Of a stretch of 48,269 nt of DNA, positions 2,718 through 25,218 are shown piece after piece. The stretch is from Candidatus Altimarinota bacterium (GTDB lineage Bacteria; Patescibacteriota; Gracilibacteria; Absconditabacterales; Absconditicoccaceae). Location of the stretch: contig JALUXR010000055.1 in NCBI GenBank assembly GCA_027013285.1, forward strand, positions 1 to 48,269, in the 5' to 3' direction. Numbering within the stretch: the stretch's first letter is position 1; every line of letters begins with the position of its first letter. The position numbers were made by a program, and so were the translations under genes. A model generated the notes under the pieces. The model saw only the letters and a list, made by a program, of their open reading frames with translations. It made no database searches and had not been told where the DNA came from.

Positions 2718-5372
2718 ATGCCAAATTTTAATATTTATACAACAAAAGCTTCTGAAGCTGTTCAGACTGCTCATGATATGGCTTTGGAAAAGAAAAATTC
2801 AAATATGGATACATATCATTTACTTATTTCTATGCTTGAGCAAGACGATGGATATGTTCCTATGATTTTGAAGAAATTAGATGTTGATACAAAACAATTA
2901 AAATTAGATTTACAAAATAAGATAGCAAATTTGCCTTCTGTAAGTTGAAATTATCAAATTTGATTGTCTTATCAGTTAAATACAGTTTTTTCTACTGCAG
3001 AAAATTTAATGGAACAAATGGGTGATCAATATGTAACTACTGAACATTTACTTCTTGCTATGTTAAAAGATAATACAGATGTTGCAAAAGAGTTTTTGCT
3101 ACCTTTAAATATTTCTTATGATAAGGTTAAAGAAACAATAGATAGTTATAGAAATGGAGAAACTATCCAATCTCAGGATCCTGAAGCTACTATGGATACT
3201 TTAAAAAAATATGGTAGAGATTTGACAGATTTAGCTGAAGAATGAAAACTTGATCCTGTAATTGGTAGAGAAGAAGAAATGAGAAGAACTATTCAAATTT
3301 TATCAAGAAGATGAAAAAATAATCCTGTTCTTGTTTGAGATGCTTGAGTTGGTAAAACAGCAATTATAGAATGACTAGCTTTAAAAATTGTAAAATGACA
3401 AGTGCCTGATAGTCTTTTAAATAAAAGAATTATAGAGCTTGATATGTGAGCTTTGATGGCTGGAACAAAATATAGAGGTGAATTTGAAGAAAGATTGACT
3501 GCAATTATGAAAGAGTTAGAAAAAGCAGAATGACAAGTTATTTTATTTATAGATGAAATACACACAGTAGTAGGTGCTGGTAAAACAGAAGGTTCTATGG
3601 ATATGTGAAATATGTTGAAACCTGCATTAGCAAGATGATTTTTGAAAGTTGTCGGAGCTACTACTATTACTGAATATAGACAAAATATTGAAAAAGACCC
3701 TGCTTTGGAAAGAAGATTTCAACCTGTTTATGTAGATGAACCATCAAAAGAAGATGCAATTGCTATTTTAAGATGAATTAAGTGAGCTTATGAAACTCAT
3801 CATGGAGTAAGAATTACAGATGGTGCTATAGTTGCTTGTGTTGAATTGTCTATGAAATATATTGCAGATAGAAAACTTCCAGATAAAGCTATTGATCTTA
3901 TGGATGAAGCAGCTGCAAGTGTAAAAATGTGAATTTCTTCTCAACCAGAAGAATTATTAGTATTAGATAGGAAAATTAGAACATTAGAAATAGAAAAAGA
4001 GAGTTTAAAAATGGAACTTTGAGATGATAAAAAAGACAAAAAAGAGACAAAAAGAATAAAAGAAATAGAAAAAGAGCTTTCTTGATTAGTAGAAGAGTAT
4101 AATACTATGAAAGCTGAATGGGAAAGTGAAAGACAATTAGTTATTGATAGTAAAAAATTGAAAGAAGAAATTAAAAAACTTGAGCATGAAGCAGAAATAG
4201 CTGAAAAACAAACAGATTATAACAAAGTTGCTGAAATTAGATATGGTAAAATTCCTAAAGTTAAAAATGAATTAAAGAAGTTAGAAGAAGATATTGAAAA
4301 AGCAAAAACAGAATGAAGACTTGTAATTAAAGATATAGTTGAACCAGAAGATATTGCAGCTGTAGTATCAAAATGGACAGGTATACCAGTTACAAAATTA
4401 GTTCAATCTGAAAGAGATAAATTAGCACATTTGGAAGATTATTTATCTCAAAAAGTTATTTGACAAGATCATGCTATTAAATCTGTTGCAAATGCAATTA
4501 GAAGATCAAGAGCTTGATTACAAGATGCAAATAGGCCTATTGGTAGTTTCTTGTTCTTATGACCTACATGAGTTGGTAAGACAGAACTTGCAAAAGCATT
4601 AGCTCAATTTTTGTTTGATGATGAAAAATCACTTACAAGAATAGATATGTCTGAATATATGGAAAAACATTCAGTTTCAAAATTAATTGGTGCTCCTGCC
4701 GGTTATGTTGGTTATGAAGAATGATGACAACTTACAGAAGCTGTGAGAAGAAGACCTTTTTCAGTAATATTATTTGATGAAGTTGAAAAGGCTCATCCAG
4801 ATGTTTTCAATATTTTATTACAAATATTAGATGATGGAAGACTTACAGATAGTAAGGGTAAGACAGTAGATTTTACAAATACTATTATTATACTTACATC
4901 AAATTTATGAGCAAATGAAATTATGGATAAGATGCAAGATTCTTTGAAAGACGGTGATTTTACTTCTCAAGAAGCTGATAAAGTAAGAGAAAGTTTAGAA
5001 AAATCATTGATGGATAATTTACAAAATTTCTTTAAGCCAGAATTCTTAAACAGGCTTGATGATATTATTGTATTCAACCCATTATCTGATAAAGTATTAA
5101 GGATGATTGTAGATATTCAAGTTAAGAAATATGTTAGGATGCTCGAAGAAGAGAAAGATATTAAACTAACTTTAACAGAAAAATCAAAAGATTTCTTAGC
5201 AAAAGTTGGTTGGGATCCAATCTTTGGTGCAAGACCATTGAAAAGAGCTATTCAAAAATATTTATTAAATACTTTGTCTTTGGATATCATATCTTGAAAG
5301 ATTACAGAATGATCTGATGTAAGAGTTGATAAATCTGATAAAGAAGAGAAATTGGTATTTAAAGTTAAATAA
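2718..5372 (+). CDS. clpB: ATP-dependent chaperone ClpB
   Basis: Track fragments 2718-2948, 2964-3245, 4107-4316 and 4923-5297 share one frame and join when TGA is read as Gly. Motifs: [17 protein letters not shown]; Walker A GDAGVGKTA (TGA at 3336 and 3345); second Walker A GPTGVGKTE; a long middle coiled coil. Stop TAA 5370-5372. Confidence 0.97.
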
Positions 5373-6458: not shown

Positions 6459-8360
6459 ATGTTTTATAATATTAAATTAATTAAAATGAAAGTATTACCA
6501 GAAGTTATAAATCTTTATAAAGAAACTTTTGCTCCTTTGAAAAATATGTTTGATGAATTTAAGAAAACTTGAAAAATAAATATAATTATAACTGATTTTT
6601 TGAATGAATTAGGTTTGAAAGAAAATGAAAAAACAATTTATGTAGCATGTGAAAGAATTGCAAATTTAAAAACACCTATTTTAAAATCTTATTTAGATGA
6701 ATCTGATAAAAAAGTAGAAGAAAATATTAAAACTTTAAAAGTAGGTATTCCAAATACATTACAAGATAAACAAAAAATACTTCAAAAAGCATATATTTTT
6801 ACATCAAATTTATATACTGAATATTTTCAAATATTTATTGAAAATGTAAAAGAAAAAAATTTATTAGATGATTTTTATATTACTTTATTAGAATGAAGTT
6901 TAGAAGTTGCAAATGTTTTTAATGATTTTTATTTTGTTTGGTCAGAATATATAGAAAAACAAAATGATATCTTAGATAAAATGTTTTGAAATGATAGTGA
7001 GAAAATAATGACTTATTTAAAAGAAAAGAATTTGTTAGAAAAAGATGAAAATAGAAATTATACCGATAGATCATATACTGTTTTGAAATGATGAATAATG
7101 TTTTCTTATGCACAAGTTTTCCCAAATCAAATAAATAAAATTTCACAAGCTATAGATGATTTTGTAGAAAATTTACAAGATAAAAAAAATAAAGAAAAAC
7201 AGGATATTATAAATTATTTACAAGCTATTAAAGAAGCTTATTTGGAAACTGATACTACAAAACTTTTGAGAAAATGGGAAAAGGTAGATGAATTATGGAT
7301 GCAAATTAAGTGACCTTTTCAAATAGTTCATCCTATGGAATATTATGATGATAAATATAGAAAAGCAGTTCAACCTGAATTTGATATTAGGATTTTGGAT
7401 ACTGAAACATTACAGTCAAATGTTCAACAAGATGTATCTTTTATGTTTGATGAATTATTTAGTAAATTTAATAAAGAAAAATATGAGGAAATTTATAATT
7501 TCTCAAAAGAAAGTTTTTCTCGTGTTTTATTGTTTGTATCTGAACCAGTAATCTATGGAGGTGGTTATATGAACTGACTTTTTTCTGCACAAGTAGTTCC
7601 AAATGATGAAAAAATTAGTGAAAAGTTTGGTAAAAAGATATTTGCTTTCCCAAATAAAGTAAGAGCTGAACAACAAAAAGCTCCTTTAAAAAAACATACA
7701 GTTTTAACTTTTGATAAAGATATTATTGAAGAATATAAAGATATTTTGAATGATTCACAAACTTATTATAAAATTTACGATATAGAAACTATATGACATG
7801 AGTTTGGGCACACACTTTGGATGGGAAATGAAACAGAAGTGAAGATGAATTTTAAAACTTGAAATTTTAAAAATATAGAAGAATGGAAAGCAACAACTTG
7901 ATGATTGGTGGCTTATTTTTATAAAGTTCAGACTCAATTATGAGAGTCCGGACTTGAACAAGAACTTTCTGAATCTGATAAAAAATTGATGTTAATGCAC
8001 TTTAGAAGAAGTGTAGCTTTGATGGAACGGAAAAATTTTGATGAGGTTGCTCCATATTATAATGAAGGACTTATACATTTGGATATCTTGTTTAAATCAG
8101 ATGTTTTACAAATAAAAGACAATAAAGTTTACTTTAATCTAACAGTTCAAACTTATAAAAAATTAAAAGATTTATATTTGAAAACTTATAAAAAACTTAT
8201 TGAAACTTATTTGAATAAAAAAGATGCAGGAGAATTTTTGTTTGATTACATAATTACAGATAAAAATAATTATAACTTACCAAAAGATGATAATCTTAGA
8301 AAATTTGTAATACATTATCAAGAAATATTTGAAAAATATGGAAATGAAGTAGTTAAATAA
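6459..8360 (+). CDS. putative zinc metallopeptidase (HEFGH motif)
   Basis: Track ORFs 6600-6896, 7098-7313, 7335-7577 and 7986-8360 are in one frame and join via TGA codons. Motif ETIGHEFGHTLW, with EEWKATTGG about 25 residues downstream. Start ATG 6459 (alternative ATG 6486). Stop TAA 8358-8360. Confidence 0.8.
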
Positions 8361-8810
8361 AAGTAGCTAAATATCTTTAATTTATTTAATATTAGAAATA
8401 TGGAATTTCTTGTGCATGTGATACCTTGAAGTAAACAAATTTTAGTTAAAAAAGATGGTAAAGATTTGTTGACAAATAGAGATATTTATAAAGTAAAACT
8501 TACTGCGAAACCTATAAATGGAGAAGCAAATAAACAACTTATAGAAGTGTTGGTGGATTTCTTTAAGACAAAAAGAAGATTTATAGAAATTGATAAATGA
8601 GCTAGTAGTAGGTTAAAACTTGTAAAAATAATTGAAAATTAAAAATACTTTTGTACAATTAAATCAATTTTAATTTTTTATTAAAATATTATGAAAACAC
8701 CTTATATTTGGAAAAATGGAGAGTTTATAGCTTGGGATGATGCTTTGGACCATAATATTACTCATTCTTTACATTATGGTAGTTGAGTTTTTGAATGAAT
8801 TAGATTTTAT
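8355..8810 (+). repeat. 456-bp direct repeat, left copy
   Basis: Base-for-base identical to 10757-11212 by line-by-line comparison (offset 2402). Confidence 0.95.
8400..8642 (+). CDS. DUF167 (YggU-like) family protein, copy 1
   Basis: MEFLVHVIPGSKQILVKKDGKDLLTNRDIYKVKLTAKPINGEANKQLIEVLVDFFKTKRRFIEIDKGASSRLKLVKIIEN, the typical DUF167 pattern. Lies inside the repeat. Confidence 0.8.
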
Positions 8811-8822
8811 TATTCTTCATAA
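8691..8822 (+). pseudogene. truncated 5' fragment of ilvE (first 40 codons, then 3 foreign codons and a stop)
   Basis: Identical to the start of the intact ilvE at 11093. The frame leaves the repeat at 8811 and ends at TAA 8820-8822. Confidence 0.85.
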
Positions 8823-8891
8823 GTCCCATAGATTAAGGAGTAAAATTTATAATATTACTTATCACCTAATATTATAATCTTCTATGGGGCT
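8822..8891 (+). other. 70-nt two-tier hairpin at the left edge of the insertion
   Basis: Outer stem AGTCCCATAGA (8822-8832) / TCTATGGGGCT (8881-8891), 11 bp with one G-U. Inner perfect 10-bp stem TATAATATTA (8848-8857) / TAATATTATA (8867-8876) with a 9-nt loop. Followed by a T-rich tract. Confidence 0.6.
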
Positions 8892-8911
8892 TTTAAAATT
8901 GTAATTTTTTT

Positions 8912-8939
8912 TTGACAAAATAATAAAAATAAATAAACT
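8912..8939 (+). promoter_or_regulatory. candidate promoter for the insertion gene
   Basis: TTGACA (8912-8917) - 16 nt - TAAACT (8934-8939). The AT-rich context makes specificity low. Confidence 0.3.
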
Positions 8940-8970
8940 AAACATAGTTTTAAAAAAATAAAAACAAAAA

Positions 8971-10737
8971 ATGAAAGAACATATAGAAAAGGAAGTACAA
9001 AATAATAAAAGTATTACCCCTGTTGAAACAGACCTTTTTAATTCACTTGCTATACCTGAAAATTTTTCAGATTTTTTAAATAGACTGAAAAAATATACTC
9101 AAAACTTAGATTGTCATAATACAAAAACTTGTTTAGAAAATATATTATCCATTTTCTCAAATATGAAAATACCATCATATAGTAATATAATTCAAAAAAT
9201 TGGGAATTTTGATAATAAAAATGGAAATATATTCGAAATAATTAAAAGTAAAGAAATTGAAAATTTTGAATGAGAAGTAGTAAGCATAAGTTTTGATGCA
9301 ATATGAAGTACAAGTTTAGATTCAAGTACTTTGAAAGAATTTATGAAACAAGTTATTTATACAGTAAATATTTTTGAAAATCTGTATAAAAATGAGTGAT
9401 TACAAATGTTTTCTATAAATTGAGATGAAATTCATATTTGATTTTTTTCAAACAAATTAACACAAAAAGAAAAAGTAGAAATTTTCCAATTATTGTCTAT
9501 GATTTTACATTTGATAACTTGAAAAGGATTTCACCATGTAATGTTAGCTTGGGAAAAAGAAAAATGAGAAGGCATCACTGCTGTTTTCCAAGAAAATATT
9601 GCAAATACTATTGTAAGTGAATCTTATAGTTGAGAATACAAAAAAAGCAAAAAATCCAAACTTCCAAATTATATTCAAACAAAATTACTGAAAGAAAAAG
9701 AGCAAATATCACAACTACTATATGGTTTAAATATAAAACCATATTTAAAAATAGATTTTAATAAACTTGAAGAAAATATAGATTATCTTGAAGAAAATAA
9801 TATTCCACTACACAGATTACTAACAAAAATAATCATAAATTATATTTCAAATAACTTACAAAACAAAGAAGTCAATTTATTAGAAAATAAAGAAATAGAA
9901 GTAGTTGAATTTAACAAATGAAAAAAAATAATTTCTTATTGAGAAAAAAATAGTAAGTTATATTTAGTTTTAAATTGAAATGTAGAAATCCAAATTTTTT
10001 GAAATCCAAATTTAGCAAAATATTCTTCTTGAAAAACAATTTTATGAGAAATGTCTATGTATGGAAGACCTGCTAATGCAAATGTAATAGCAGATAGTAA
10101 AGTGAAAACTTTAAAAATAAATAAAAAATTTATAGAAGATATGCTTGTCTGAAATATAATAATAGATGCAAGGTTTACAAAACAATTGGATATATTGTTA
10201 AAAAAATATATTAAGTGAAGAGAAAATTACAATTTACTAATAAATCAATATTTCCAAGAATTAATTAACTATTGAAATAAACCTTTAAGTGAAATATTTG
10301 AAATTTGGAACTTATTTTTGGAAATTTTGCTAAAATCTGAAAAAACATATAAAAAAGCAGAAAATAAACCATTAACTTATAAATGAAAAGAAAACGATAA
10401 ATTATACTTTTTGAGGAAATGAACTATTGTAAGAAAAAATGAAATAAAATTTACATTAGAAAATGATGAATTAATATGAGAAAACACATTTTTACAATAT
10501 ATTAGCTGAAATACAAATCCAAAAGCAAATGCTAGTATAGAAATTGTTGATTGAAAAATAATAGAAATGGATTTTGGGGAAGTTATAAAAGTTTTAGAAA
10601 AAGAGAAAATGGATATAAGTAAATTCCAAGAAGTTTTGGAAAAGATAGCAAAATTAAGAGAAAATAACAATGATTTTGTTTGATTTTGATGAAAAAAAGT
10701 TTTTTCTGGAACTAGTCCTTTCAAAAAAGCAGCCTAA
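8971..10737 (+). CDS. 588-aa protein: nucleotidyl-cyclase-like palm region followed by two cyclic-nucleotide-binding-like domains
   Basis: Verified codon by codon from ATG 8971 to TAA 10735-10737, with 25 in-frame TGA by my count. Only the first 100 aa appear in the track. Motifs: VVSISFDAIGSTSL (9277-9318), INGDEIHIGFF (9415-9447), ENIANTIVSES, GEMSMYGRPANANVIA (10045-10092), GENTFL..NPKANASIEIV (10477-10548). Confidence 0.85.
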
Positions 10738-10756
10738 GATTTCCTCTCCTTCCTAG

Positions 10757-11212
10757 AAATAAAAGTAGCTAAATATCTTTAATTTATTTAATATTAGAAA
10801 TATGGAATTTCTTGTGCATGTGATACCTTGAAGTAAACAAATTTTAGTTAAAAAAGATGGTAAAGATTTGTTGACAAATAGAGATATTTATAAAGTAAAA
10901 CTTACTGCGAAACCTATAAATGGAGAAGCAAATAAACAACTTATAGAAGTGTTGGTGGATTTCTTTAAGACAAAAAGAAGATTTATAGAAATTGATAAAT
11001 GAGCTAGTAGTAGGTTAAAACTTGTAAAAATAATTGAAAATTAAAAATACTTTTGTACAATTAAATCAATTTTAATTTTTTATTAAAATATTATGAAAAC
11101 ACCTTATATTTGGAAAAATGGAGAGTTTATAGCTTGGGATGATGCTTTGGACCATAATATTACTCATTCTTTACATTATGGTAGTTGAGTTTTTGAATGA
11201 ATTAGATTTTAT
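10757..11212 (+). repeat. 456-bp direct repeat, right copy
   Basis: Identical to 8355-8810. Confidence 0.95.
10802..11044 (+). CDS. DUF167 (YggU-like) family protein, copy 2
   Basis: Identical to 8400-8642. Confidence 0.8.
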
Positions 11213-12001
11213 CCTACCGAAAATGGACCGAAGATTTTTAGGCTTAAAGAACATATTCAAAGACTTTTTTATTCTGCATCTTGTATGCAAATGGAAATTC
11301 CTTTTACGGAAGAGGAAATTATAAAAGCTACAATAGAATTAGTTGAAAAATCTGGAATAGAAAGTGGATATATAAGACCTATTGCTTATTTTGGTTATGG
11401 TAAAATGTGATTAAATCCTACATGAGCACCAGTTGAAATTGCTATCTCAGCTTGGGCTTGGTGAAAATATCTTTCAGAAGATCCTATAAATGTAAAAATT
11501 CCATCTGTAAGGAGAATTGATCCTCAAACTATTCCAATGTGAGCAAAAATTTGTGGTAACTATGCAAATAGTATTTTAGCAAGTTTGGAGATTAAAAATG
11601 GAGGTTATGATGAATGACTTTTACTTGATACACAATGATTTATTGCAGAATGACCTGGTGAAAATATCTTTTTTGTAAGATGAAAAGAACTTTTTACACC
11701 AACTTTATGAACTATACTTCCTTGAATTACAAGAGATACTATTATAAAATTATTTAAAGATAAATTTGATATTGATGTAAAAGAAACTAGAATACATCCA
11801 AAACAATTAAAAGAATTTGATGAAACTTTTTTTGTAGGTACAGCAGCAGAAGTAACTCCTATTTGAACTATTACAGATGAGCTTTGAAATAAATTTGAAT
11901 ATAATTCAGGAGAAGAAAATAGCTATACTCAAAAAATAAAAAAAATATATGATGATGTAGTAAAATGAAAAGATAAAGATTATTTACAATGGTTAGCTTA
12001 G
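11093..12001 (+). CDS. ilvE: branched-chain amino acid aminotransferase
   Basis: 302 aa. [40 protein letters not shown]; later GYIRPIAYFGYG, EGPGENIFFV, LPGITRD, FFVGTAAEVTPI. Stop TAG 11999-12001. Track ORF 11139-11324 is in a wrong frame. Confidence 0.93.
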
Positions 12002-12034
12002 GCGAACTTTTTTATTTGAAAAATTATTTTTATT

Positions 12035-12057
12035 AGTTATACTGGTATAACTTTTTA
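12035..12057 (+). terminator. rho-independent terminator after ilvE
   Basis: AGTTAT-ACTGGT-ATAACT followed by TTTTT. Confidence 0.55.
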
Positions 12058-12077
12058 TACTAGTTATTTTTAATATT

Positions 12078-12275
12078 ATGAAACTTTATTGAATTACAAA
12101 ACTTTGACCTAAATGACAAGTTGTGATACCACAGGAAGCAAGAGAAGATTTATGATTAAAACCTGGTGATAAGGTAGTAGTTTTTTCACCATCTTGAAAA
12201 TGAGTTGTGGTAACTTCGACAAAAGAAATGAAAAAACATTTAAAAGATTTTTCTCAATTATTTGAAGAAGAATAA
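12078..12275 (+). CDS. AbrB/MazE/SpoVT-type DNA-binding protein
   Basis: 65 aa. MKLYGITKLGPKGQVVIPQEAREDLGLKPGDKVVVFSPSG is the typical looped-hinge-helix signature. Confidence 0.8.
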
Positions 12276-12308
12276 TTTTTTTATATTTATAAATTAACCT
12301 TAAAATAA

Positions 12309-12941
12309 ATGAAAAATATATTAGATTGTTTAAATTGGAGATATGCTGTAAAAAAGTTTAATTCTAATAAAAAAGTTTCAAACGAGAATTTAGAAAAGAT
12401 ATTACAAGGTTTTACTTTGACAGCTTCTTCTTTTAATTTACAGCCTTGGTGAATTGTTGTTGTAGAAAACCAAGAATTAAAAGATAAATTGTTTGAATAT
12501 TCTTATTATCAAGAGCAAATAAAAGATTGTTCACATTTGTTAGTTTTGTGTAGAAAAACTGATTTATCTGAAAAATTAGTTGATGATTTGATAGACTCAC
12601 TAGTTGAAAAATCTGGAATGAAAAAAAATAATTTTGAATCTTATGAAAATATGATGAGATGATTTCTATCTAGATTGGACGATAATAGAAAAATATCTTG
12701 GGCTGAAAAACAAGTTTATATTGCCTTGGGAAATTTACTTGATGTATGTGCCTGTTTAGAAATAGATTCTTGTCCAATGGAATGATTTGATAAACAAAAA
12801 TATGATGAAATCTTAAATTTACAAGAAAAATGATTATCTTCTGTTTTGGTTTTGCCTATTGGTTATAGAGCAGAAGATGATAAATATGCTACTATTCCTA
12901 AACATAGGTATGATTTGGATGATTTAGTTATAAAAATGTAA
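12309..12941 (+). CDS. NAD(P)H nitroreductase family protein
   Basis: 210 aa. NWRYAVKKFNSNKKVS, SSFNLQPWGIVVV, CPMEGFD and LPIGYRAEDD are typical of NfsB/oxygen-insensitive nitroreductases. Confidence 0.85.
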
Positions 12942-12943
12942 TT

Positions 12944-13450
12944 ATGATTTCTTTTTATGATATTATTTGATATATTTCTGTATGATTTGCAATAGCAGGA
13001 TTTCTTACAAAGTCTAGAAATAGAATGTTAATTTATGGAATTATATCTACATTGTTATTATGAATTTGTGTATATTTTTATTGATGATATAATTGATTAA
13101 GTGTTTCTATAATATCAGTAGTTGTAAAATTATTGTCATTATTTGTAAACAAGAAATATTTAAAATATATCAAATATTCTACACCATTTGTAGCATTATG
13201 ATTGTTTTTTATTCTTCCTGAATGAATTGAATGAATTATTCCAGCTTTGAGTATGTTCTTTATAATTGTTGCAGATAGTCAAAAAGATGTTTTAAAGATG
13301 AAATATTGGTATTATGGTAGTAATTTACTATGGTTAAGTTATGGTATTATATTATTTAGTATTCCTGCTATTTTGTTTGATACATTTTGATTTTTATCTC
13401 TTACTTATGGAGTATATAAAATAAGAAAAGATAGAAAGAAATTAACCTAA
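12944..13450 (+). CDS. YgjV-like inner membrane protein (putative)
   Basis: 168 aa with several hydrophobic helices. Verified open from ATG 12944 to TAA 13448-13450. The family call is tentative. Confidence 0.7.
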
Positions 13451-13501: not shown

Positions 13502-15328
13502 ATGAAAAAAATATTGTTAGTATCTTTATGAATTAGTCTAGTTTTATCTTGATGTAGTTCAAAAGAGCAAGTAATAAAAAAAAACATACAAACACAGGAT
13601 GTAAAACAAACTTGTAATAAATCTTTTGTTGTGTGAAGTTGAAAAAATCAAGTTTATAATTTACAAGCAAAAGTAGTTTCTTCAAACATAAAAAATATTA
13701 CTTCAAATAATGCTTGAGTTATTTCTTACTTGAATTGTACTCCTTGACAAAAAGTAAATTCAAAAACTTTGCTAGCAAAAATAATTCCTGATTGGTCAAG
13801 TCCTACTATAAAAAATTTGATTAACCAGAAAAAAGCTATTCAAACTCAGTTAGAGAATACAAAGAATATTTTTGTTAGTACAAAGTCTAACTTTTCTTCC
13901 CAATTAAATTCTTTAGTTATACAAAAAACTAATTTAGAAAGTCAGATTAAAATATTAAATCAGAATTTAATTAAATTAAATAATCAAAAGAAATATTGAA
14001 TTAATGATCTTTGAGAACAATTAAGTAACTTACAAACTCAATTGAAAAATTTAAAAAAATCAAAAACTAACTTAGAACAAAGTAAGCAAGCAGATATAGA
14101 AAAAATTAAATTATCTATTTTGAATACAAAAAACAGTATTTCATCTTCCATCAAAAATGACTTATTTAGAATTGATGAGATATTTTGAATATCTGATGCA
14201 AATAAACATAAAAATGATGCTTATAAAAATTATTTGAGTGCAAAGAATACTACACTTAAAGATAAAATTAAAAATGATTGGAGAAAAATATCTTCACAAA
14301 AAATAAATAATTTATCAAATAAAGAATTTTCTAATTATATTCAACAAGTTGATTTGCTTGTTCAAGATGTAAAACAGGCAATTAAAAATTCAGTAGCTTC
14401 AAGAAGTTTTTCACAAACACAAATAAATACATACTATAATGAATTTAATTCTTATGATTTAGCTTTAATTTCTTCAAAAACTAAGTTAGATGATTTAATT
14501 CAAAATTATACTACAATTGTTAATAATTATGATACACAAATAATTTCATTAGAAACACAGATAGATACTATAAAATCTAATATAAAAAACATTAAAGATA
14601 ATAAGATAGATTCTTATTCTTCAAGTATAGATATTCAAATAAATACAACTAAAACTCAATTAGATAATACAAATTCAAGTTTAAAAAATATAGAAAATCA
14701 AATTAAATCTCTAGATGATCAAGAAAATATTCAGCTTAAACAATTAGAAAATCAAATTTCTAGTTTAAAATCAAATTTATCTCAAATTAATGTAAATTTA
14801 GCACCACAAAATATTTATGCAGGTGTAAATTGAAAAATTAAAAACAAAAAAGCCGATAAATGAAATAAAGTATGACCAAACGGCTTGATCTGTCAGATAG
14901 TTCCAAATAAGAGTAGTTTAAAATTACAAATTTATGGAGATTTAGGAGTTGGAAGAGATTTAGGAGAAGTTGAATTTAAAGATAACAATTGAAAAAATTG
15001 TAAATTAAAAATAGTTAGTAAATTACCTTACCAAGATCCAATTACTCAAAATAATATTTATGAAACAGAAGATAATATTAATTGTAATATTCAAGAATGA
15101 GAAATTTTGTCTGTAAAATATAATAAAGAAAACAATAAAGTTATAAATTGAAATAAAAAAATATTTATACCATTAGATTTTGTAGTAAATAAACTTACTG
15201 GACAGTTTGTAAAAGAAAAGATAGCTAGCTGAGATATTCAAGAAATTCCTGTTAAACTTTGAAATATAGACTGAACAAATGTAGAGATTTTATCTTGATT
15301 AAAAATATGAGATAAGATTTGTAGATAG
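13502..15328 (+). CDS. lipoprotein, HlyD/RND membrane-fusion (periplasmic adaptor)-like with long coiled coil
   Basis: Signal peptide plus lipobox LVLSGCSS, whose Gly is TGA 13550-13552. Track ORFs 13769-13999 and 14234-14833 are in frame. Has a Q/N/S-rich coiled coil and a C-terminal beta-rich part. Lies upstream of the RND pump. Stop TAG 15326-15328. Confidence 0.8.
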
Positions 15329-15402
15329 GAGATTTGGAGATTAAAGGAGATAATGTAGATGAGTTAATTGCTAAAAAATAATTTAATTTGTAAAATATAG
15401 AA

Positions 15403-15753
15403 ATGTCTAATAATTGTGTATTTTGTAATATAGATAAGAAAAATTATATATTCGAAAATAATCATTTTTTTGTGGTCTTAGATAAAAATCCCATAACTAA
15501 ATGACATTGTCTTATTGTATCTAAGCTTCATTTTAACAACATTTTTGATGCAAATATATCTATATTTAATAATTTATGAGATGTACTTCAATTTCTAATA
15601 ACTAGTTTTAAAAATAAATATTGATTTGAAGATTTTAACATTTTGCATGCAAGCTGAAAAAATGCTCAACAAAGTGTAGGACATTTACATATTCATTTTG
15701 TTCCAAGATATAAGAATGATAATTTAGATTTATGGATTAAAAATAAAAAATAA
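15403..15753 (+). CDS. HIT (histidine triad) family protein
   Basis: 116 aa. CVFCNI, NPITKGHCLIVSK, and the histidine triad GHLHIHFVP. Confidence 0.88.
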
Positions 15754-15757
15754 CTAT

Positions 15758-22614: not shown

Positions 22615-25218
22615 TTACAGGCTTTCCCATACAGCTTTTTTTTGTCCATCTACTTCCTTTATTTCCAAAAGTTTTACTCTTATGGTATCTCAAATATTAT
22701 AGTAATCTTTCCAATTTATTCATTCTGGTAAGTTTATGTTTTTTTTATGTAAAAGTCCTTCGTATTCATCAGCTAATACAAATAATCCATAATTAAATTT
22801 TAATTTTACAATTCACTCAAAAATATCTCAAATATCATTATTTTCTTTTTGTCATTTTGAATTTATTTCAGAATCTTTAGATCTTGTTATAAGTTTAGTA
22901 TGACTAAGTAGTTTTCATTTTCAATTATCTTTAAAATCTTTTTTAATATCTAAATTTCTCTTTTTTTTAGTTTGTTCTGTATTTTCTTTATGCTTTTCAA
23001 TATTTTTCTTATTTTGAGTTTTTATGCTTTCTCAAATTTCCTTTTCTACATCTTGCTTTGGTTTCGTATATTTAGATTTAGATAGTTGTTTTATTTCTTC
23101 GATAAATTTATTATTTTTTATGTTTTCATCTAAAATAGGTTGAGTAGCTATTCCAAAAACATCTGTAGAAGTCCCATCTATCATTATTTTTGTGTATGCT
23201 TTGAATTTTGGAATAGAGCTTATGTCGTTTGCAGTGATTTGATTTTTAAATTGTTTAGATAATATCTCAGCATCTTCATTTCAACTATTGAAAACTACAA
23301 GATTTCAGATATTTCCAAAAATAGCATTTCTTACATCTTTATCTATCTGACTAATGTATTGGTTTGCAACAGCAAGTGACAATTTATATTTTCTAGCTTC
23401 AGATAAAATTACAGAAAATGATTCAGTGGCAAAATTTTGAAATTCGTCTATGTAGAGTGTAAATTCTTTTCTTTTATTCATAGGTAAATTTGCTCTTTTC
23501 ATAGTTTCTACTTGTATTTGACTTACGATAAATGAACCTATCATAGCAGAATTATCTTCACCAATAAGACCTTTTGATAAATTTACAAGCAAAATTTTAT
23601 TGTTTTGCATTATTTCAGCTATATTGATAGTTGACTTAGTTTGTCAGAAAATATTTCTTATGATAGGAGAAGAAACAAATTGTCCTACTTTGTTCATAAT
23701 TGGACTTATGGCTTCAGATGCAAATCTTTCTGACCGTTTTGTAAATTCTTTTTCCCAGAAATCTTTAATTATAGGGTCTGCAGTTTGTGTTAATACTTCT
23801 TTCCTAAAATCTTTGTCTGTAAGCATTTTCATAATATGTAAGAAATTTGCTTGGTCATACTCAGATAAGGCTAAAAGTGTATTTCTGAAAATATATTCAA
23901 GTCTTGGTCCCCAGCTATTTCAGTATAATTTTTTAAAAATAGACAATACTGTTGAAACGGATAAATCTTTATTATAATTTTTTCATTTTTCAAAAACATT
24001 GAATCCAACAGGATTTTCTGTATCTGAAACATTGAAATATATTATGTCATTTTTTCTATTTTCAGGTATTACTTGCAAAATATTTTCTGCTAAATCTCCG
24101 TGAGGGTCTATCAAAGCAAGTCATCTGCCTCTTTCTAAATCAGACAAAACCATATTTGAAAGCAATGTAGATTTACCAACTCAAGTTTTTCAAATAATAT
24201 ATACATGACGAGCTTTGTCCTCTTGTTTTAGTCAAACAACTTGTTTTTCATCTGCCCAATCTATTTTTCACAAAACAGTGATATCTTCATCTTTCGATGG
24301 TAAATTTGAAGGTGGAGCAAGTCTTTTGTAGTTGATATATTTGATTCATTTGATGTTTTCTTCTTCTGTTGGAACATGAAATATTTTTGAAAATTCATTT
24401 ATTTCAACTGATGAAAAGACCTCTTCGTTCTGTGTATATAATTCTGTTTCTGTAGCTTCGTTTATGTTCTTAAAAAATAACTTATCAAAATTGTTATAGC
24501 CACCTACTCATATTGAAAGTGCAGTTCATTTGATTCAAGTTTCTATCTTTTGTTTTTTGCTTACTTTTGTTATTTTAGGTTCTACTCAAGTAAAAACTCT
24601 TACAAAAAAATAGTAAATTCAAAATAAAAATAATTTTATTCATTTCCAGATAAGCTCAAATAAACTTTCATAATGTATTTCTCAAGAAGAATTTAATATT
24701 ATTGAATATTTTATGATTCATTTGTTATTTGAAGGAATATCTTTGAATAAGAAAAATGTTTCTTTGAAAAAAGTTTTAGATTTTTTTAACTGAATTTTAT
24801 CATCTCATATTGCATGAATATAAGTTTTTAACTCTATTTTTTCATTAAAATCTATTTTTTGTATTTTTGAAGAAGGAAAGTAATTATAAAAATTATTTAC
24901 GAACTTATTTTCAAAATTTGTAGGAAAAGAAATAATTAGCTTAACTGAAGTATTGTTTCAGATAGTATAGAAATTTATTCTTTTTGAAAAATAAGAAAAA
25001 TTCTTTAGCAATTTTGCAAAAGTTTTGTAATCAAAATTATTTTTGTGATATGGTATTATTTCATAATAACTATTTTCTAACTCAACTATATTTTCAGTTT
25101 TTTTTATTTGAGATTTTTTGGATTCTTTTTTTTGTTTTTTCTTCTTGTTTGAATCCAAAAAATCAACTATTTGCTCAGCTAATATTTCAATTTTTTTAAA
25201 CATAAAATTTTTAAACAT
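22615..25218 (-). CDS. VirD4/TraD-like type IV coupling-protein-family ATPase with C-terminal S1 (OB-fold) domain
   Basis: 867 aa, reconstructed codon by codon. Track ORFs 24958-25218, 23644-23832 and 23305-23610 share its frame. Has a TM segment LIWKGIKLFLFGIYYFFV. Walker A GKTGVGKST (24166-24192). Other motifs: ALIDPHGDL, SWGPRLEYIFRN, Walker B-like TLYIDEFQNF, ARKYKLSLAVANQ. The last 71 aa (22618-22830), GDIFEGIVKLKFNYGLFVLADEYEGLLH...IGDTIRVKLLEIK, match the S1 domain pattern. Confidence 0.85.

What the first reader, a model, noticed from the sequence alone, without database searches (positions are those of the whole stretch)
8355..11212. Base-perfect 456-bp direct repeat brackets a 1.95-kb insertion that split ilvE
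8355-8810 and 10757-11212 are identical in my line-by-line comparison. Each copy carries the spacer after the peptidase gene, a complete DUF167 gene and the first 40 codons of ilvE. The left ilvE copy leaves the repeat at 8811 and terminates 3 codons later. The right copy runs on into an intact 302-aa ilvE. Between them (8811-10756) lie a two-tier hairpin, a promoter-like stretch and a single 588-aa gene. No integrase, transposase or short inverted ends are visible. This R-X-R geometry is what single-crossover (Campbell-type) integration of a circular molecule carrying X plus a copy of R would leave. A duplication-insertion event would leave the same. Zero divergence implies a very recent event, an actively excising and reintegrating element, or an assembly that merged two population variants.
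Basis: seen in the sequence. Interest (0 to 1): 0.78.

Follow-up and report, generated by a model that had tools for sequence, protein, structure and literature searches.

The report
Gene captured inside a 456-bp duplication
In an uncultured, UGA-recoded Gracilibacteria genome, one intact signalling-type gene sits between two identical 456-bp copies of the start of the DUF167-ilvE operon, so a gene was added without breaking any host gene; it looks like a recombination scar, not a mobile element, and only the original reads can prove it.

Summary
Window 8355-8810 and 10757-11212 are identical (456/456) with sharp ends. Each copy holds the last codon and stop of a DUF7897 gene, a complete DUF167 gene, the ilvE promoter and exactly 40 ilvE codons. 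The genome uses UGA as Gly (code 25, 24% GC). The 1,946 bp between the copies (X) look like an ordinary chromosomal fragment: hairpin, promoter, one intact 588-aa gene and a 19-nt tail. X is compositionally native and under purifying selection. Its homologues are single-copy genes in three other chromosomal contexts in related genomes. No recombinase, inverted ends, attC or tRNA is present within 15 kb. Relatives about 89% identical have the uninterrupted site, so both outer junctions are native and both inner ones are new. The structure is a 456-bp tandem duplication with X caught at its junction, and ilvE stays intact. Both new junctions recur in at least four assemblies, but two of those stop exactly one k-mer into R. 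Contigs therefore cannot separate an integrated R-X-R from a chromosome plus a 2.4-kb circle. A related genome carries an independent, smaller duplication-insertion at the same locus. Verdict: real, probably recent, recombinase-independent duplication-insertion. Moderately interesting.

The parts
6459..8360 (+). Upstream flank U: 633-aa DUF7897 gene with an HEFGH motif. Its last sense codon and stop (8355-8360) are the first 6 nt of R.
   Evidence: Pfam PF25448, E = 1e-149, covering residues 15-631. Collinear with relatives L032 and L016.
8355..8810 (+). R, left copy of the 456-bp direct repeat.
   Evidence: Identical to 10757-11212, with no extension on either side.
8400..8642 (+). DUF167 (YggU-like) gene, copy 1, 80 aa.
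   Evidence: Pfam PF02594, E = 8e-17.
8632..8659 (+). ilvE promoter-like site (TTGAAA-16-TACAAT), copy 1. It now drives only the 43-aa stub.
   Evidence: The same site occurs in the right copy at 11034-11061.
8691..8822 (+). Truncated ilvE': 40 native codons, then Y-S-S and a stop read from X.
   Evidence: Called as a 43-aa product in public assemblies (P0126; L001).
8811..10756 (+). X: the 1,946-bp single-copy insert at the duplication junction.
   Evidence: 21.7% GC over the whole insert, with native-type codon usage in its gene.
8821..8892 (+). Two-tier hairpin followed by a T-rich tract. Inferred to be the terminator of the gene that preceded X in its source context; here it would insulate X from the ilvE' stub. 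It is absent upstream of the X homologues.
   Evidence: Fold: -23.4 kcal/mol, z = -2.86. No Rfam match. Unique in the window and in all fetched loci. The strict terminator scan did not call it.
8912..8939 (+). X's own promoter-like site (TTGACA-16-TAAACT).
   Evidence: The block from about 8905 on is conserved upstream of the homologues in L005 and L013.
8971..10737 (+). X gene, 588 aa. N-terminal beta-alpha-beta-beta-alpha-beta core with invariant D109 and D152 (nucleotidyl-cyclase/GGDEF-like only by motif and predicted topology), followed by tandem cyclic-nucleotide-binding domains.
   Evidence: Pfam cNMP_binding at residues 312-392, E = 6e-12. PDB profile hits to PKA regulatory subunits. 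AF2 model pLDDT 61 and Foldseek matches to tandem CNB domains, E = 7e-10. The N-terminal profile has no PDB sequence hit. dN/dS 0.24-0.28.
10738..10756 (+). 19-nt C/T-rich tail of X (GATTTCCTCTCCTTCCTAG), ending at the new X|R junction.
   Evidence: Unique in the window. No counterpart downstream of the homologues.
10757..11212 (+). R, right copy.
10802..11044 (+). DUF167 gene, copy 2.
11093..12001 (+). Intact ilvE (302 aa, class IV aminotransferase) with its own promoter (11034-11061) inside R.
   Evidence: Pfam PF01063, E = 1e-50. Collinear with relatives through the insertion point.

Best explanation
This is a recent, recombinase-independent duplication-insertion in the chromosome of a code-25 Gracilibacteria-type bacterium. 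The ancestral arrangement was DUF7897 - DUF167 - ilvE (U-R-D). A 1.95-kb piece of ordinary chromosomal DNA from the same kind of organism was joined by two non-homologous joints. That piece carried the tail and terminator hairpin of one gene, then the promoter and coding sequence of a cNMP-binding protein gene. One joint links it to the end of ilvE codon 40. The other links it to the last codon of DUF7897, 456 bp upstream. The 456 bp between the two joints therefore ended up on both sides of the insert. Topologically it is a 456-bp tandem duplication with X trapped at its junction. Three routes give exactly this product: (a) a single homologous crossover of a circular R+X molecule (Campbell type); (b) a DNA fragment bridging two sister chromatids broken or paired 456 bp apart; (c) two replication template switches. 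Because R contains the DUF167 gene and the ilvE promoter, ribosome-binding site and start, the right-hand DUF167-ilvE unit stays fully functional. The only by-products are a second DUF167 copy and a 43-aa ilvE stub that ends before the hairpin. X is expressed from its own promoter. RecA-type recombination between the two R copies would delete X precisely, release a 2,402-bp circle and restore the empty site, so the insertion is reversible.

Shown: the anatomy, which junctions are native and which are new, the native composition and intactness of X, the absence of mobility genes, the empty site in relatives, and a second independent event at the locus. Inferred: the physical linkage across R, the route taken, the source of X, and expression.
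For: - Exact 456-bp repeat with sharp ends.
- U|R and R|D are native. L032 is collinear from DUF7897 into DUF167. L036 and L028 run from the DUF7897 end through R' and the whole of ilvE without interruption, and L024-L031 pass ilvE codon 40 uninterrupted.
- Both new junctions recur in L001 (NCBI MAG contig, full R-X-R), L002 (k141) and L003 (k55, two samples), all 100% identical. L023 confirms the R->D branch.
- X runs through both junctions a full k-mer into R without branching, so X has only this one context in those data.
- X is native in type: 21.8% GC in the gene, 76% of its Gly codons are UGA, and codon-usage r = 0.93 against the rest of the window. dN/dS is 0.24-0.28.
- X homologues (72-74% aa identity) are single-copy genes in three unrelated contexts: mutL/EF-G-like, recG-like, and dnaA/M23. 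Homology runs only from about 60 nt upstream of the ATG to the stop codon.
- No integrase, transposase or resolvase within 15 kb on either side, no terminal inverted repeats, no tRNA within 15 kb, no Rfam hit.
- Independent precedent at the same locus: L035 carries, on one contig, a roughly 76-nt direct repeat (DUF167 end, ilvE promoter and ATGAAAA; 4 mismatches) around a 930-nt insert holding a different gene.
- Mechanistic precedent: transforming fragments that bridge sister chromatids create tandem duplications in S. pneumoniae (PMC3784515).
Against: - Linkage across the 456-bp repeat rests on assembler decisions. Two assemblies could not resolve it (L002 and L003 stop exactly k nt into R).
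- The assemblies may not be independent. L023 differs from the window only in one 184-nt patch, so this is essentially one strain.
- No microhomology can be scored, because X's source context is unknown. The head and tail pieces match nothing.
- A 456-bp perfect direct repeat should be unstable in a RecA-proficient cell. Its persistence needs either recency or selection for X, and neither was tested.
- The dS test of X's origin was inconclusive: X vs L005 gives 0.71 +/- 0.07, while flanking genes against the same species give 0.32-0.63.
Confidence: 0.55

Rival explanations
1. Mixed population or free circle. Most cells carry the empty site U-R-D. X exists on a 2,402-bp R+X circle (an excision product or integration intermediate), in a minority of cells, or as a longer tandem array. 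The contig's R-X-R is just one traversal of a looped assembly graph.
For: L002 and L003 end exactly 141 and 55 nt into R on both sides of X, and L023 starts 141 nt before the end of R. These are unitigs bounded by a collapsed repeat with two entries and two exits. Perfect 456-bp repeats are expected to recombine.
Against: A 2.4-kb circle carrying DUF167, an ilvE stub and X has no replication function. It could only be transient, and it must derive from, or give rise to, the integrated form. Its R is 100% identical to the chromosomal R. Two assemblies (the window and L001) did thread U-R-X-R-D.
Confidence: 0.2
2. Pure assembly or library artefact. Chimeric joins of unrelated molecules or strains created junctions that exist in no cell.
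For: This is a metagenome source with related strains present in the same sample series. L013 shows that artefactual hairpin ends do occur in such data.
Against: The same two junctions, base for base, appear in at least four contigs built with different k values and pipelines (48-kb window, L001, L002 at k141, L003 at k55 in two samples). A 2,168-nt JGI contig carrying a 39-aa ilvE fragment is probably a fifth (inferred from its length). Both junctions are needed, and they are mutually consistent. L035 shows the same type of structure spanned within one short contig, with diverged repeats that cannot collapse.
Confidence: 0.07
3. Older duplication-insertion kept identical by gene conversion between the two R copies, rather than a recent event.
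For: Direct repeats 2.4 kb apart can be homogenised. X is under purifying selection like a resident gene. The L035 event shows such structures persist long enough to accumulate, or start with, 5% divergence.
Against: Relatives at dS of about 0.3-0.45 have the uninterrupted site, which caps the age. Only one strain carrying X is known. Zero differences in 456 bp is most simply explained by recency.
Confidence: 0.1
4. X is a dedicated small mobile or integrative cassette moved by a recombinase encoded elsewhere (integron-like, Xer-dependent, or IS200/IS605-like with hairpin ends). On this reading R is an unusually long attachment-site duplication.
For: There is a strong hairpin at one end of X. 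X homologues lie in different contexts in different genomes. The DUF7897-DUF167 spacer is a recurrent breakpoint in relatives.
Against: The hairpin and tail are absent from all homologue loci, so the unit that is conserved is promoter plus gene, not an element with ends. There are no inverted or direct end motifs, and the GTTRRRY core is absent at both boundaries (sequence). No recombinase lies within 15 kb. The viral-contig scan was negative. A 456-bp duplication is far outside known target or att duplications. The boundaries in relatives are at different nucleotides (24 vs 45 nt upstream of the DUF167 ATG).
Confidence: 0.05

Closest known systems
Campbell-type (single-crossover) insertion-duplication, as produced by non-replicating circular DNA that carries a chromosomal homology segment
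   Same: Identical end product: the insert is flanked by two direct copies of one contiguous chromosomal segment. The outer junctions are wild type. Reversal by recombination between the repeats gives a circle of insert plus one repeat.
   Different: There is no vector or replicon, and no evidence that a circle ever existed. In the laboratory an internal gene fragment is used to disrupt the gene. Here R includes the promoter and start, so the downstream gene stays intact.
Tandem duplications (merodiploids) created by transforming DNA that bridges sister chromatids (Johnston et al. 2013, PLoS Genet, PMC3784515)
   Same: A short DNA fragment joins two positions on sister chromatids and creates a tandem duplication whose junction is defined by the fragment. 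No transposase is needed.
   Different: Those duplications are 100-900 kb and form by homologous pairing at IS repeats. Here the duplication is 456 bp, the junction carries 1.95 kb of non-homologous DNA, and both joints are illegitimate. Competence of this organism was not examined.
Microhomology-mediated template switching (MMBIR/FoSTeS) giving a duplication with inserted sequence at the breakpoint (from general knowledge, not tested here)
   Same: It predicts exactly a duplication flanking a templated insertion, with arbitrary breakpoints and no recombinase.
   Different: It would leave the template copy of X in place. The assemblies show X in only one context. Microhomology cannot be assessed without the source locus.
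IS26-type translocatable units (from general knowledge)
   Same: R-X-R geometry with a circular R+X intermediate that inserts next to an existing R.
   Different: There R is an IS that encodes its own transposase. Here R is host DNA (DUF167 and the 5' end of ilvE) with no transposase.
Pycsar and other cyclic-nucleotide defence or signalling proteins (relevant to the cargo gene only)
   Same: X has cNMP-binding domains that match PycC and PycTIR models over residues 306-391, and a possible cyclase-like palm core.
   Different: The matches cover only the cNMP-binding domain. There is no effector domain (TIR or transmembrane), no Pfam or PDB sequence support for a cyclase, and no partner gene.

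Membership tests
Campbell-type insertion-duplication / tandem duplication with junction insert | The insert is flanked by direct repeats that are copies of one contiguous chromosomal segment. | tested here: met
   456/456 identical and 2402 nt apart.
Campbell-type insertion-duplication / tandem duplication with junction insert | The outer junctions (U|R, R|D) are wild type, and removing X plus one R restores the ancestral sequence. | tested here: met
   Relatives L032, L036, L028 and L024-L031 are collinear across U|R, across R, and through ilvE codon 40.
Campbell-type insertion-duplication / tandem duplication with junction insert | Physical linkage U-R-X-R-D on one molecule, and for the Campbell route a circular R+X donor. 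| not testable with these tools
   Only contigs are available. L002, L003 and L023 break at R. Reads are needed.
Transposon / insertion sequence | A transposase gene, terminal inverted repeats, and a short (2-14 bp) target-site duplication. | tested here: not met
   The only gene is a cNMP-binding protein. No terminal inverted repeats at 8811 or 10756. The duplication is 456 bp.
Integron gene cassette | An attC site with a GTTRRRY core at the cassette boundary, and a nearby intI integrase. | tested here: not met
   The boundaries read TTTTAT|TATTCT and CCTAG|AAATAA. The hairpin is at the 5' side and is not conserved in homologues. No integrase within 15 kb.
Site-specific integrative element (phage, ICE or IME with tyrosine or serine recombinase) | An element-encoded recombinase, short att repeats, and often a tRNA or gene 3'-end target. 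| tested here: not met
   No recombinase. The nearest tRNAs are at 25.9-26.2 kb. No viral-contig relatives.
MMBIR / template-switch duplication-insertion | Microhomology at both switch points, and retention of the template copy of the inserted segment. | tested here: inconclusive
   The source context of X is unknown, so microhomology cannot be scored. The assemblies show X in a single context only, which argues against an intragenomic template but not an exogenous one.
cNMP-binding (CAP/PKA-R type) domain proteins (cargo X) | A significant match to the cyclic-nucleotide-binding domain. | tested here: met
   PF00027, E = 6e-12, above the gathering score. PDB profile hits to PKA-R at 4e-8. Foldseek matches to tandem CNB domains at 7e-10.
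Class III nucleotidyl cyclase / GGDEF palm domain (cargo X, N-terminus) | Sequence or structure match to the catalytic palm domain with two metal-binding Asp residues. | tested here: inconclusive
   No Pfam, NCBIfam or PDB sequence hit. The AF2 model shows beta-alpha-beta-beta-alpha-beta with invariant D109 and D152, but the domain could not be searched on its own.
Pycsar defence system | A PycC cyclase plus an effector with a cNMP-binding domain fused to TIR or transmembrane domains. | tested here: not met
   The PADLOC hits cover only residues 306-391, the cNMP-binding domain. There is no effector domain and no partner gene.

The most novel reading that the evidence does not exclude
The DUF7897-DUF167-ilvE interval of hydrothermal-vent Gracilibacteria may be a recurrent gene-capture site. 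At this site, single foreign or relocated genes would be added by a recombinase-independent duplication-insertion that always re-creates the promoter-proximal part of the downstream operon, so cargo is gained at no cost to host genes and can be lost again precisely. Support so far: the window (456-bp repeat, cNMP-binding gene); L035 (about 76-nt repeat, a different 303-aa gene that uses the ilvE start); and the within-species polymorphism of what lies upstream of DUF167 (510-aa secreted protein cluster vs DUF7897). If general, this would be a distinct mode of accessory-gene turnover in small, mobile-element-poor, possibly competent CPR genomes.
Probability: 0.2. Interest if true: 0.6.

Novelty: new member of a known kind. 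Interest (0 to 1): 0.4.

Why it matters
If the linkage is real, this is a clean natural example of how a reduced, UGA-recoded CPR bacterium with no visible mobile-element machinery can gain a working gene. Duplicating the operon's 5' end makes the insertion harmless and reversible. A second, independent event of the same design at the same locus suggests the process recurs there. That gives a concrete, testable handle on gene flux in Gracilibacteria, through read-level structure, excision circles and empty sites. It is also a practical warning: perfect repeats of a few hundred bp around single genes in metagenome contigs are exactly where assemblers guess. Finally, the cargo belongs to a tiny family restricted to code-25 organisms (about 8 clusters among 1.84 billion representatives), combining a possible cyclase-like core with tandem cNMP-binding domains. 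That family is uncharacterised.

Tried and rejected
Solved by going through database ids, which carry W at UGA.
- **Structure prediction with correct code-25 sequences:** The 11-sequence model reached pLDDT 61, but Foldseek was dominated by the CNB domains.
- **N-terminal profile vs PDB sequences:** no hit. The cyclase assignment remains unproven.
- **'L023 is an independent strain, so X is unusually conserved':** rejected. All 14 differences lie in one 184-nt patch.
- **'Contigs of the X homologues break near the gene because their flanks vary':** rejected. They are collinear sub-pieces of L005 and L013.
- **Shared breakpoint at about 8620 between L035 and the rnc-ilvE junction of L022/L027:** the similarity is low-complexity K/I/E codons and not convincing.
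- **Linking L032's divergent tail to the L037 cluster to prove a third R'-X'-R':** no overlap and no homologues. Left open.
- **dS test for vertical vs foreign origin of X:** ranges overlap, inconclusive.
- **The 303-aa L035 cargo as an EEP-type nuclease (GDFN and SDHD motifs seen by eye):** no Pfam support.
- **Metagenome and viral scans for more X loci:** they returned only a contig already held, or nothing.
- **Search for papers naming the samples or MAGs:** none found.

Full report
**1. Observation**

Window 8355-8810 and 10757-11212 are identical over 456 nt. The match stops abruptly on both sides, and the copies are 2402 nt apart. No other long repeat exists in the 48-kb window.

The window is 24% GC and cannot be read with the standard bacterial code. 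ORFs of at least 100 aa cover 18% of it under table 11 but 115% (all six frames summed) when UGA is a sense codon. UGA falls on the conserved Gly of the ilvE motif VFEGIR, so the code is 25 (UGA = Gly). The closest genomes are labelled Candidatus Gracilibacteria.

- R begins at the last sense codon and stop of a 633-aa DUF7897/HExxH gene.
- R contains a complete 80-aa DUF167 gene.
- R contains a promoter-like TTGAAA-16-TACAAT.
- R contains exactly 40 codons of ilvE.

The left ilvE stub runs into X and stops after Y-S-S. The right copy is an intact 302-aa class IV aminotransferase. ilvE is therefore duplicated at its 5' end, not destroyed.

**2. What lies between the copies**

X (8811-10756) has four parts:
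- A 72-nt two-tier hairpin followed by a T-rich tract (8821-8892). It folds at -23.4 kcal/mol, with z = -2.9, and none of 200 shuffles was as stable. It has no Rfam family, and the strict terminator scan did not call it.
- A TTGACA-16-TAAACT promoter-like site.
- One 588-aa gene.
- A 19-nt C/T-rich tail.

The gene has a significant cyclic-nucleotide-binding domain (Pfam E = 6e-12). Profile and fold comparisons show a tandem pair of such domains, like PKA/PKG regulatory subunits.

The N-terminal 300 residues match no Pfam, NCBIfam or PDB sequence. The family alignment and an AF2 model (pLDDT 61) show a beta-alpha-beta-beta-alpha-beta core with invariant Asp109 and Asp152. That resembles a nucleotidyl-cyclase or GGDEF palm, but this is my inference from motifs and topology, not a tested assignment. 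PADLOC hits to Pycsar proteins cover only the cNMP-binding domain.

The family is tiny. It has four clusters in 5.8 billion proteins by word search, and twelve hits, about eight of them full length, among 1.84 billion representatives. All members are rich in W at conserved Gly columns, so all come from UGA-recoded organisms.

**3. X is host-type DNA, not an element**

- The X gene is 21.8% GC. 76% of its Gly codons are UGA, against 58% in the rest of the window. Its codon usage correlates 0.93 with the other genes, which is typical for this window.
- dN/dS against three homologues is 0.24-0.28, the same as among the homologues themselves.
- Those homologues (72-74% aa, about 80-84% nt identity) are single-copy genes in three unrelated chromosomal contexts: between mutL and an EF-G-like gene, next to a recG-like gene, and between dnaA-side small ORFs and an M23 peptidase.
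- Homology to the window runs only from about 60 nt upstream of the ATG to the stop codon. The hairpin and the tail have no counterpart there or anywhere else I could search.
- No integrase, transposase or resolvase lies within 15 kb on either side. There are no terminal inverted repeats and no integron core site. The nearest tRNAs are 15 kb away, and viral contigs hold no relative.
- X begins with TAT TCT TCA TAA plus a hairpin. That looks like the last codons and terminator of whatever gene preceded X at its source (inference).

**4. Which junctions are new**

Relatives about 89% identical in DNA (dS about 0.3-0.6) were recovered through the ilvE and DUF167 protein clusters.
- L032 is collinear with the window from DUF7897 into DUF167.
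- L036 and L028 run from the DUF7897 end through R' and all of ilvE.
- Every relative passes ilvE codon 40 without interruption.

Hence U|R and R|D are ancestral, and the new joints are R|X (8810/8811) and X|R (10756/10757). The insertion postdates the split from these relatives. Formally the structure is a 456-bp tandem duplication whose junction carries 1,946 bp of extra DNA.

**5. Is it physically real?**

The X protein occurs on four contigs:
- L001 (NCBI MAG GCA_027023925.1) reproduces window 7823-12775 exactly, including both R copies.
- L002 (a k141 assembly) is X plus exactly 141 nt of R at each end.
- L003 (two samples) is X plus exactly 55 nt of R at each end.
- L023, from the same assembly as L002, starts 141 nt before the end of R and continues into ilvE.

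A 2,168-nt JGI contig carrying a 39-aa ilvE fragment is probably another X unitig (inferred from its length).

Both new junctions are therefore reproducible, and X has no other context in these data. But the repeat is collapsed in the graphs. Contigs alone cannot distinguish an integrated U-R-X-R-D from U-R-D plus a 2,402-bp R+X circle, or from a mixed population.

The assemblies are also not demonstrably independent. L023 differs from the window only in a 184-nt patch.

I favour the integrated form. A circle made of DUF167, an ilvE stub and X has no replication function. With an R identical to the chromosome's, it could only be a transient product or precursor of the integrated form.

**6. 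A recurrent pattern at this locus**

L035, from a relative, carries on one 1,337-nt contig: DUF167, then the ilvE promoter and ATGAAAA, then a 930-nt insert encoding an unrelated 303-aa protein that uses the ilvE start, then again the last DUF167 codons, the promoter and ATGAAAACACC... of ilvE. That is a roughly 76-nt direct repeat with 4 mismatches. It has the same design on a smaller scale, and its diverged copies cannot be an assembly collapse.

In the same relative species (ilvE dS 0.017 between MAGs WFMV and WFMP), DUF167 is preceded either by DUF7897 or by a cluster ending in a 510-aa secreted protein. That cluster holds an S74 tail-fibre-like gene, two paralogous lipoproteins and the 510-aa gene. 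Contigs end or start exactly 55 nt around that boundary.

L032 has a DUF167 copy that is 94-96% identical to the others and then diverges 5 nt after its stop. It may be the left half of a larger duplication-insertion, but I could not link the pieces.

The repeat boundaries differ between genomes: 45 vs 24 nt upstream of the DUF167 ATG, and codon 40, ATG+7, or stop+5 on the other side. That argues against a site-specific mechanism.

**7. Mechanism**

All evidence fits a recombinase-independent duplication-insertion with two illegitimate joints. Three routes give the same product:
- A single homologous crossover of a circular R+X molecule (Campbell type).
- Capture of a linear fragment between sister chromatids paired or broken 456 bp apart. 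This is analogous to the transformation-driven interchromatid integration shown experimentally in S. pneumoniae (PMC3784515).
- Two replication template switches.

The single context of X argues against copying from a resident template. The zero divergence between the R copies suggests both derive from this genome rather than from a diverged donor. The dS comparison for the origin of X is inconclusive. I cannot choose among the routes without the source locus of X or the reads.

Functionally, the design is neutral for the host operon, because R carries the DUF167 gene and ilvE's promoter and start. It places a hairpin between the ilvE stub and X, and it is precisely reversible by recombination between the repeats.

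**8. Comparison, novelty, verdict**

The end product is that of classical insertion-duplication or tandem duplication with a junction insert. It fails every tested defining feature of transposons, integron cassettes and recombinase-borne integrative elements.

I file it as a new member of a known kind of structural change. Its interesting features are the host (a CPR bacterium with an altered code), the exact preservation of the operon, the uncharacterised lineage-restricted cargo, and a second independent event at the same site.

Confidence that it is a genuine, recent chromosomal duplication-insertion is about 0.55. The main alternative is a mixed or circular state of the same sequence (0.2). 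Interest is 0.4. It would rise to about 0.6 if read-level data confirm a recurrent gene-capture process at this locus.

Noticed in passing
whole window (1-48269): The window uses genetic code 25 (UGA = Gly; 58% of Gly codons overall are UGA) at 24% GC. Public protein databases hold these proteins with W at every UGA, which hides Pfam hits and degrades profiles and structure prediction.
   Followed up: yes
window 12941-13423 (gene 12944-13450): A 168-aa Imp-YgjV membrane-protein gene is present in the window but absent from the relatives that are about 89% identical. Those relatives join window-equivalent 12940 directly to 13424. This is another single-gene indel 1 kb downstream of the finding, and no flanking duplication is evident.
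   Followed up: partly
window 15343-15757 (HIT gene 15403-15753): This interval does not align with the relatives. L024 has about 310 nt there without a called gene, and L025/L031 carry a 109-aa and a 226-aa gene instead. It is a third variable slot in the same 8 kb.
   Followed up: no
window 15103-15286: Fourteen substitutions cluster in 184 nt at the 3' end of the 608-aa lipoprotein gene between the window and L023. The other 4.1 kb are identical. This is either a hypervariable surface-protein patch or a small recombined tract.
   Followed up: partly
L030/L033/L037-L041 vs L028/L036/L032: Two MAGs of one species (ilvE dS 0.017) differ in what precedes DUF167. One has DUF7897. The other has a cluster with a Peptidase_S74 (tail-fibre chaperone) protein, two paralogous lipoproteins and a 510-aa secreted protein. 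k=55 contigs end and start exactly at that boundary. The 10-15 nt just upstream of the shared segment differ in every strain.
   Followed up: partly
L035:298-1209: The cargo of the second duplication-insertion is a 303-aa protein with GDFN and SDHD motifs that recall EEP-type nucleases or phosphatases, but it has no Pfam hit. Its cluster has only 3 members, all on contigs of about 1-1.3 kb.
   Followed up: partly
L013:3105-3180 and 4756-4831: A 76-nt inverted repeat duplicates the 5' end of the M23 peptidase gene at the contig end. It is probably an assembly hairpin artefact.
   Followed up: no
L022:~10160-10240 and L027:~1790-1870: In more distant relatives (about 85% nt identity) ilvE follows L32-NusB-RNase III instead of DUF167, and a tRNA-like sequence lies just downstream. 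The neighbourhood of ilvE is rearranged repeatedly in this clade.
   Followed up: no
window 22615-25218 (-): An 867-aa protein combines HerA/FtsK/TraG-TrwB-type ATPase domains with a C-terminal S1 RNA-binding domain. This is an unusual fusion. It is the only DNA-translocase-like gene near the finding, and it is not a recombinase.
   Followed up: no
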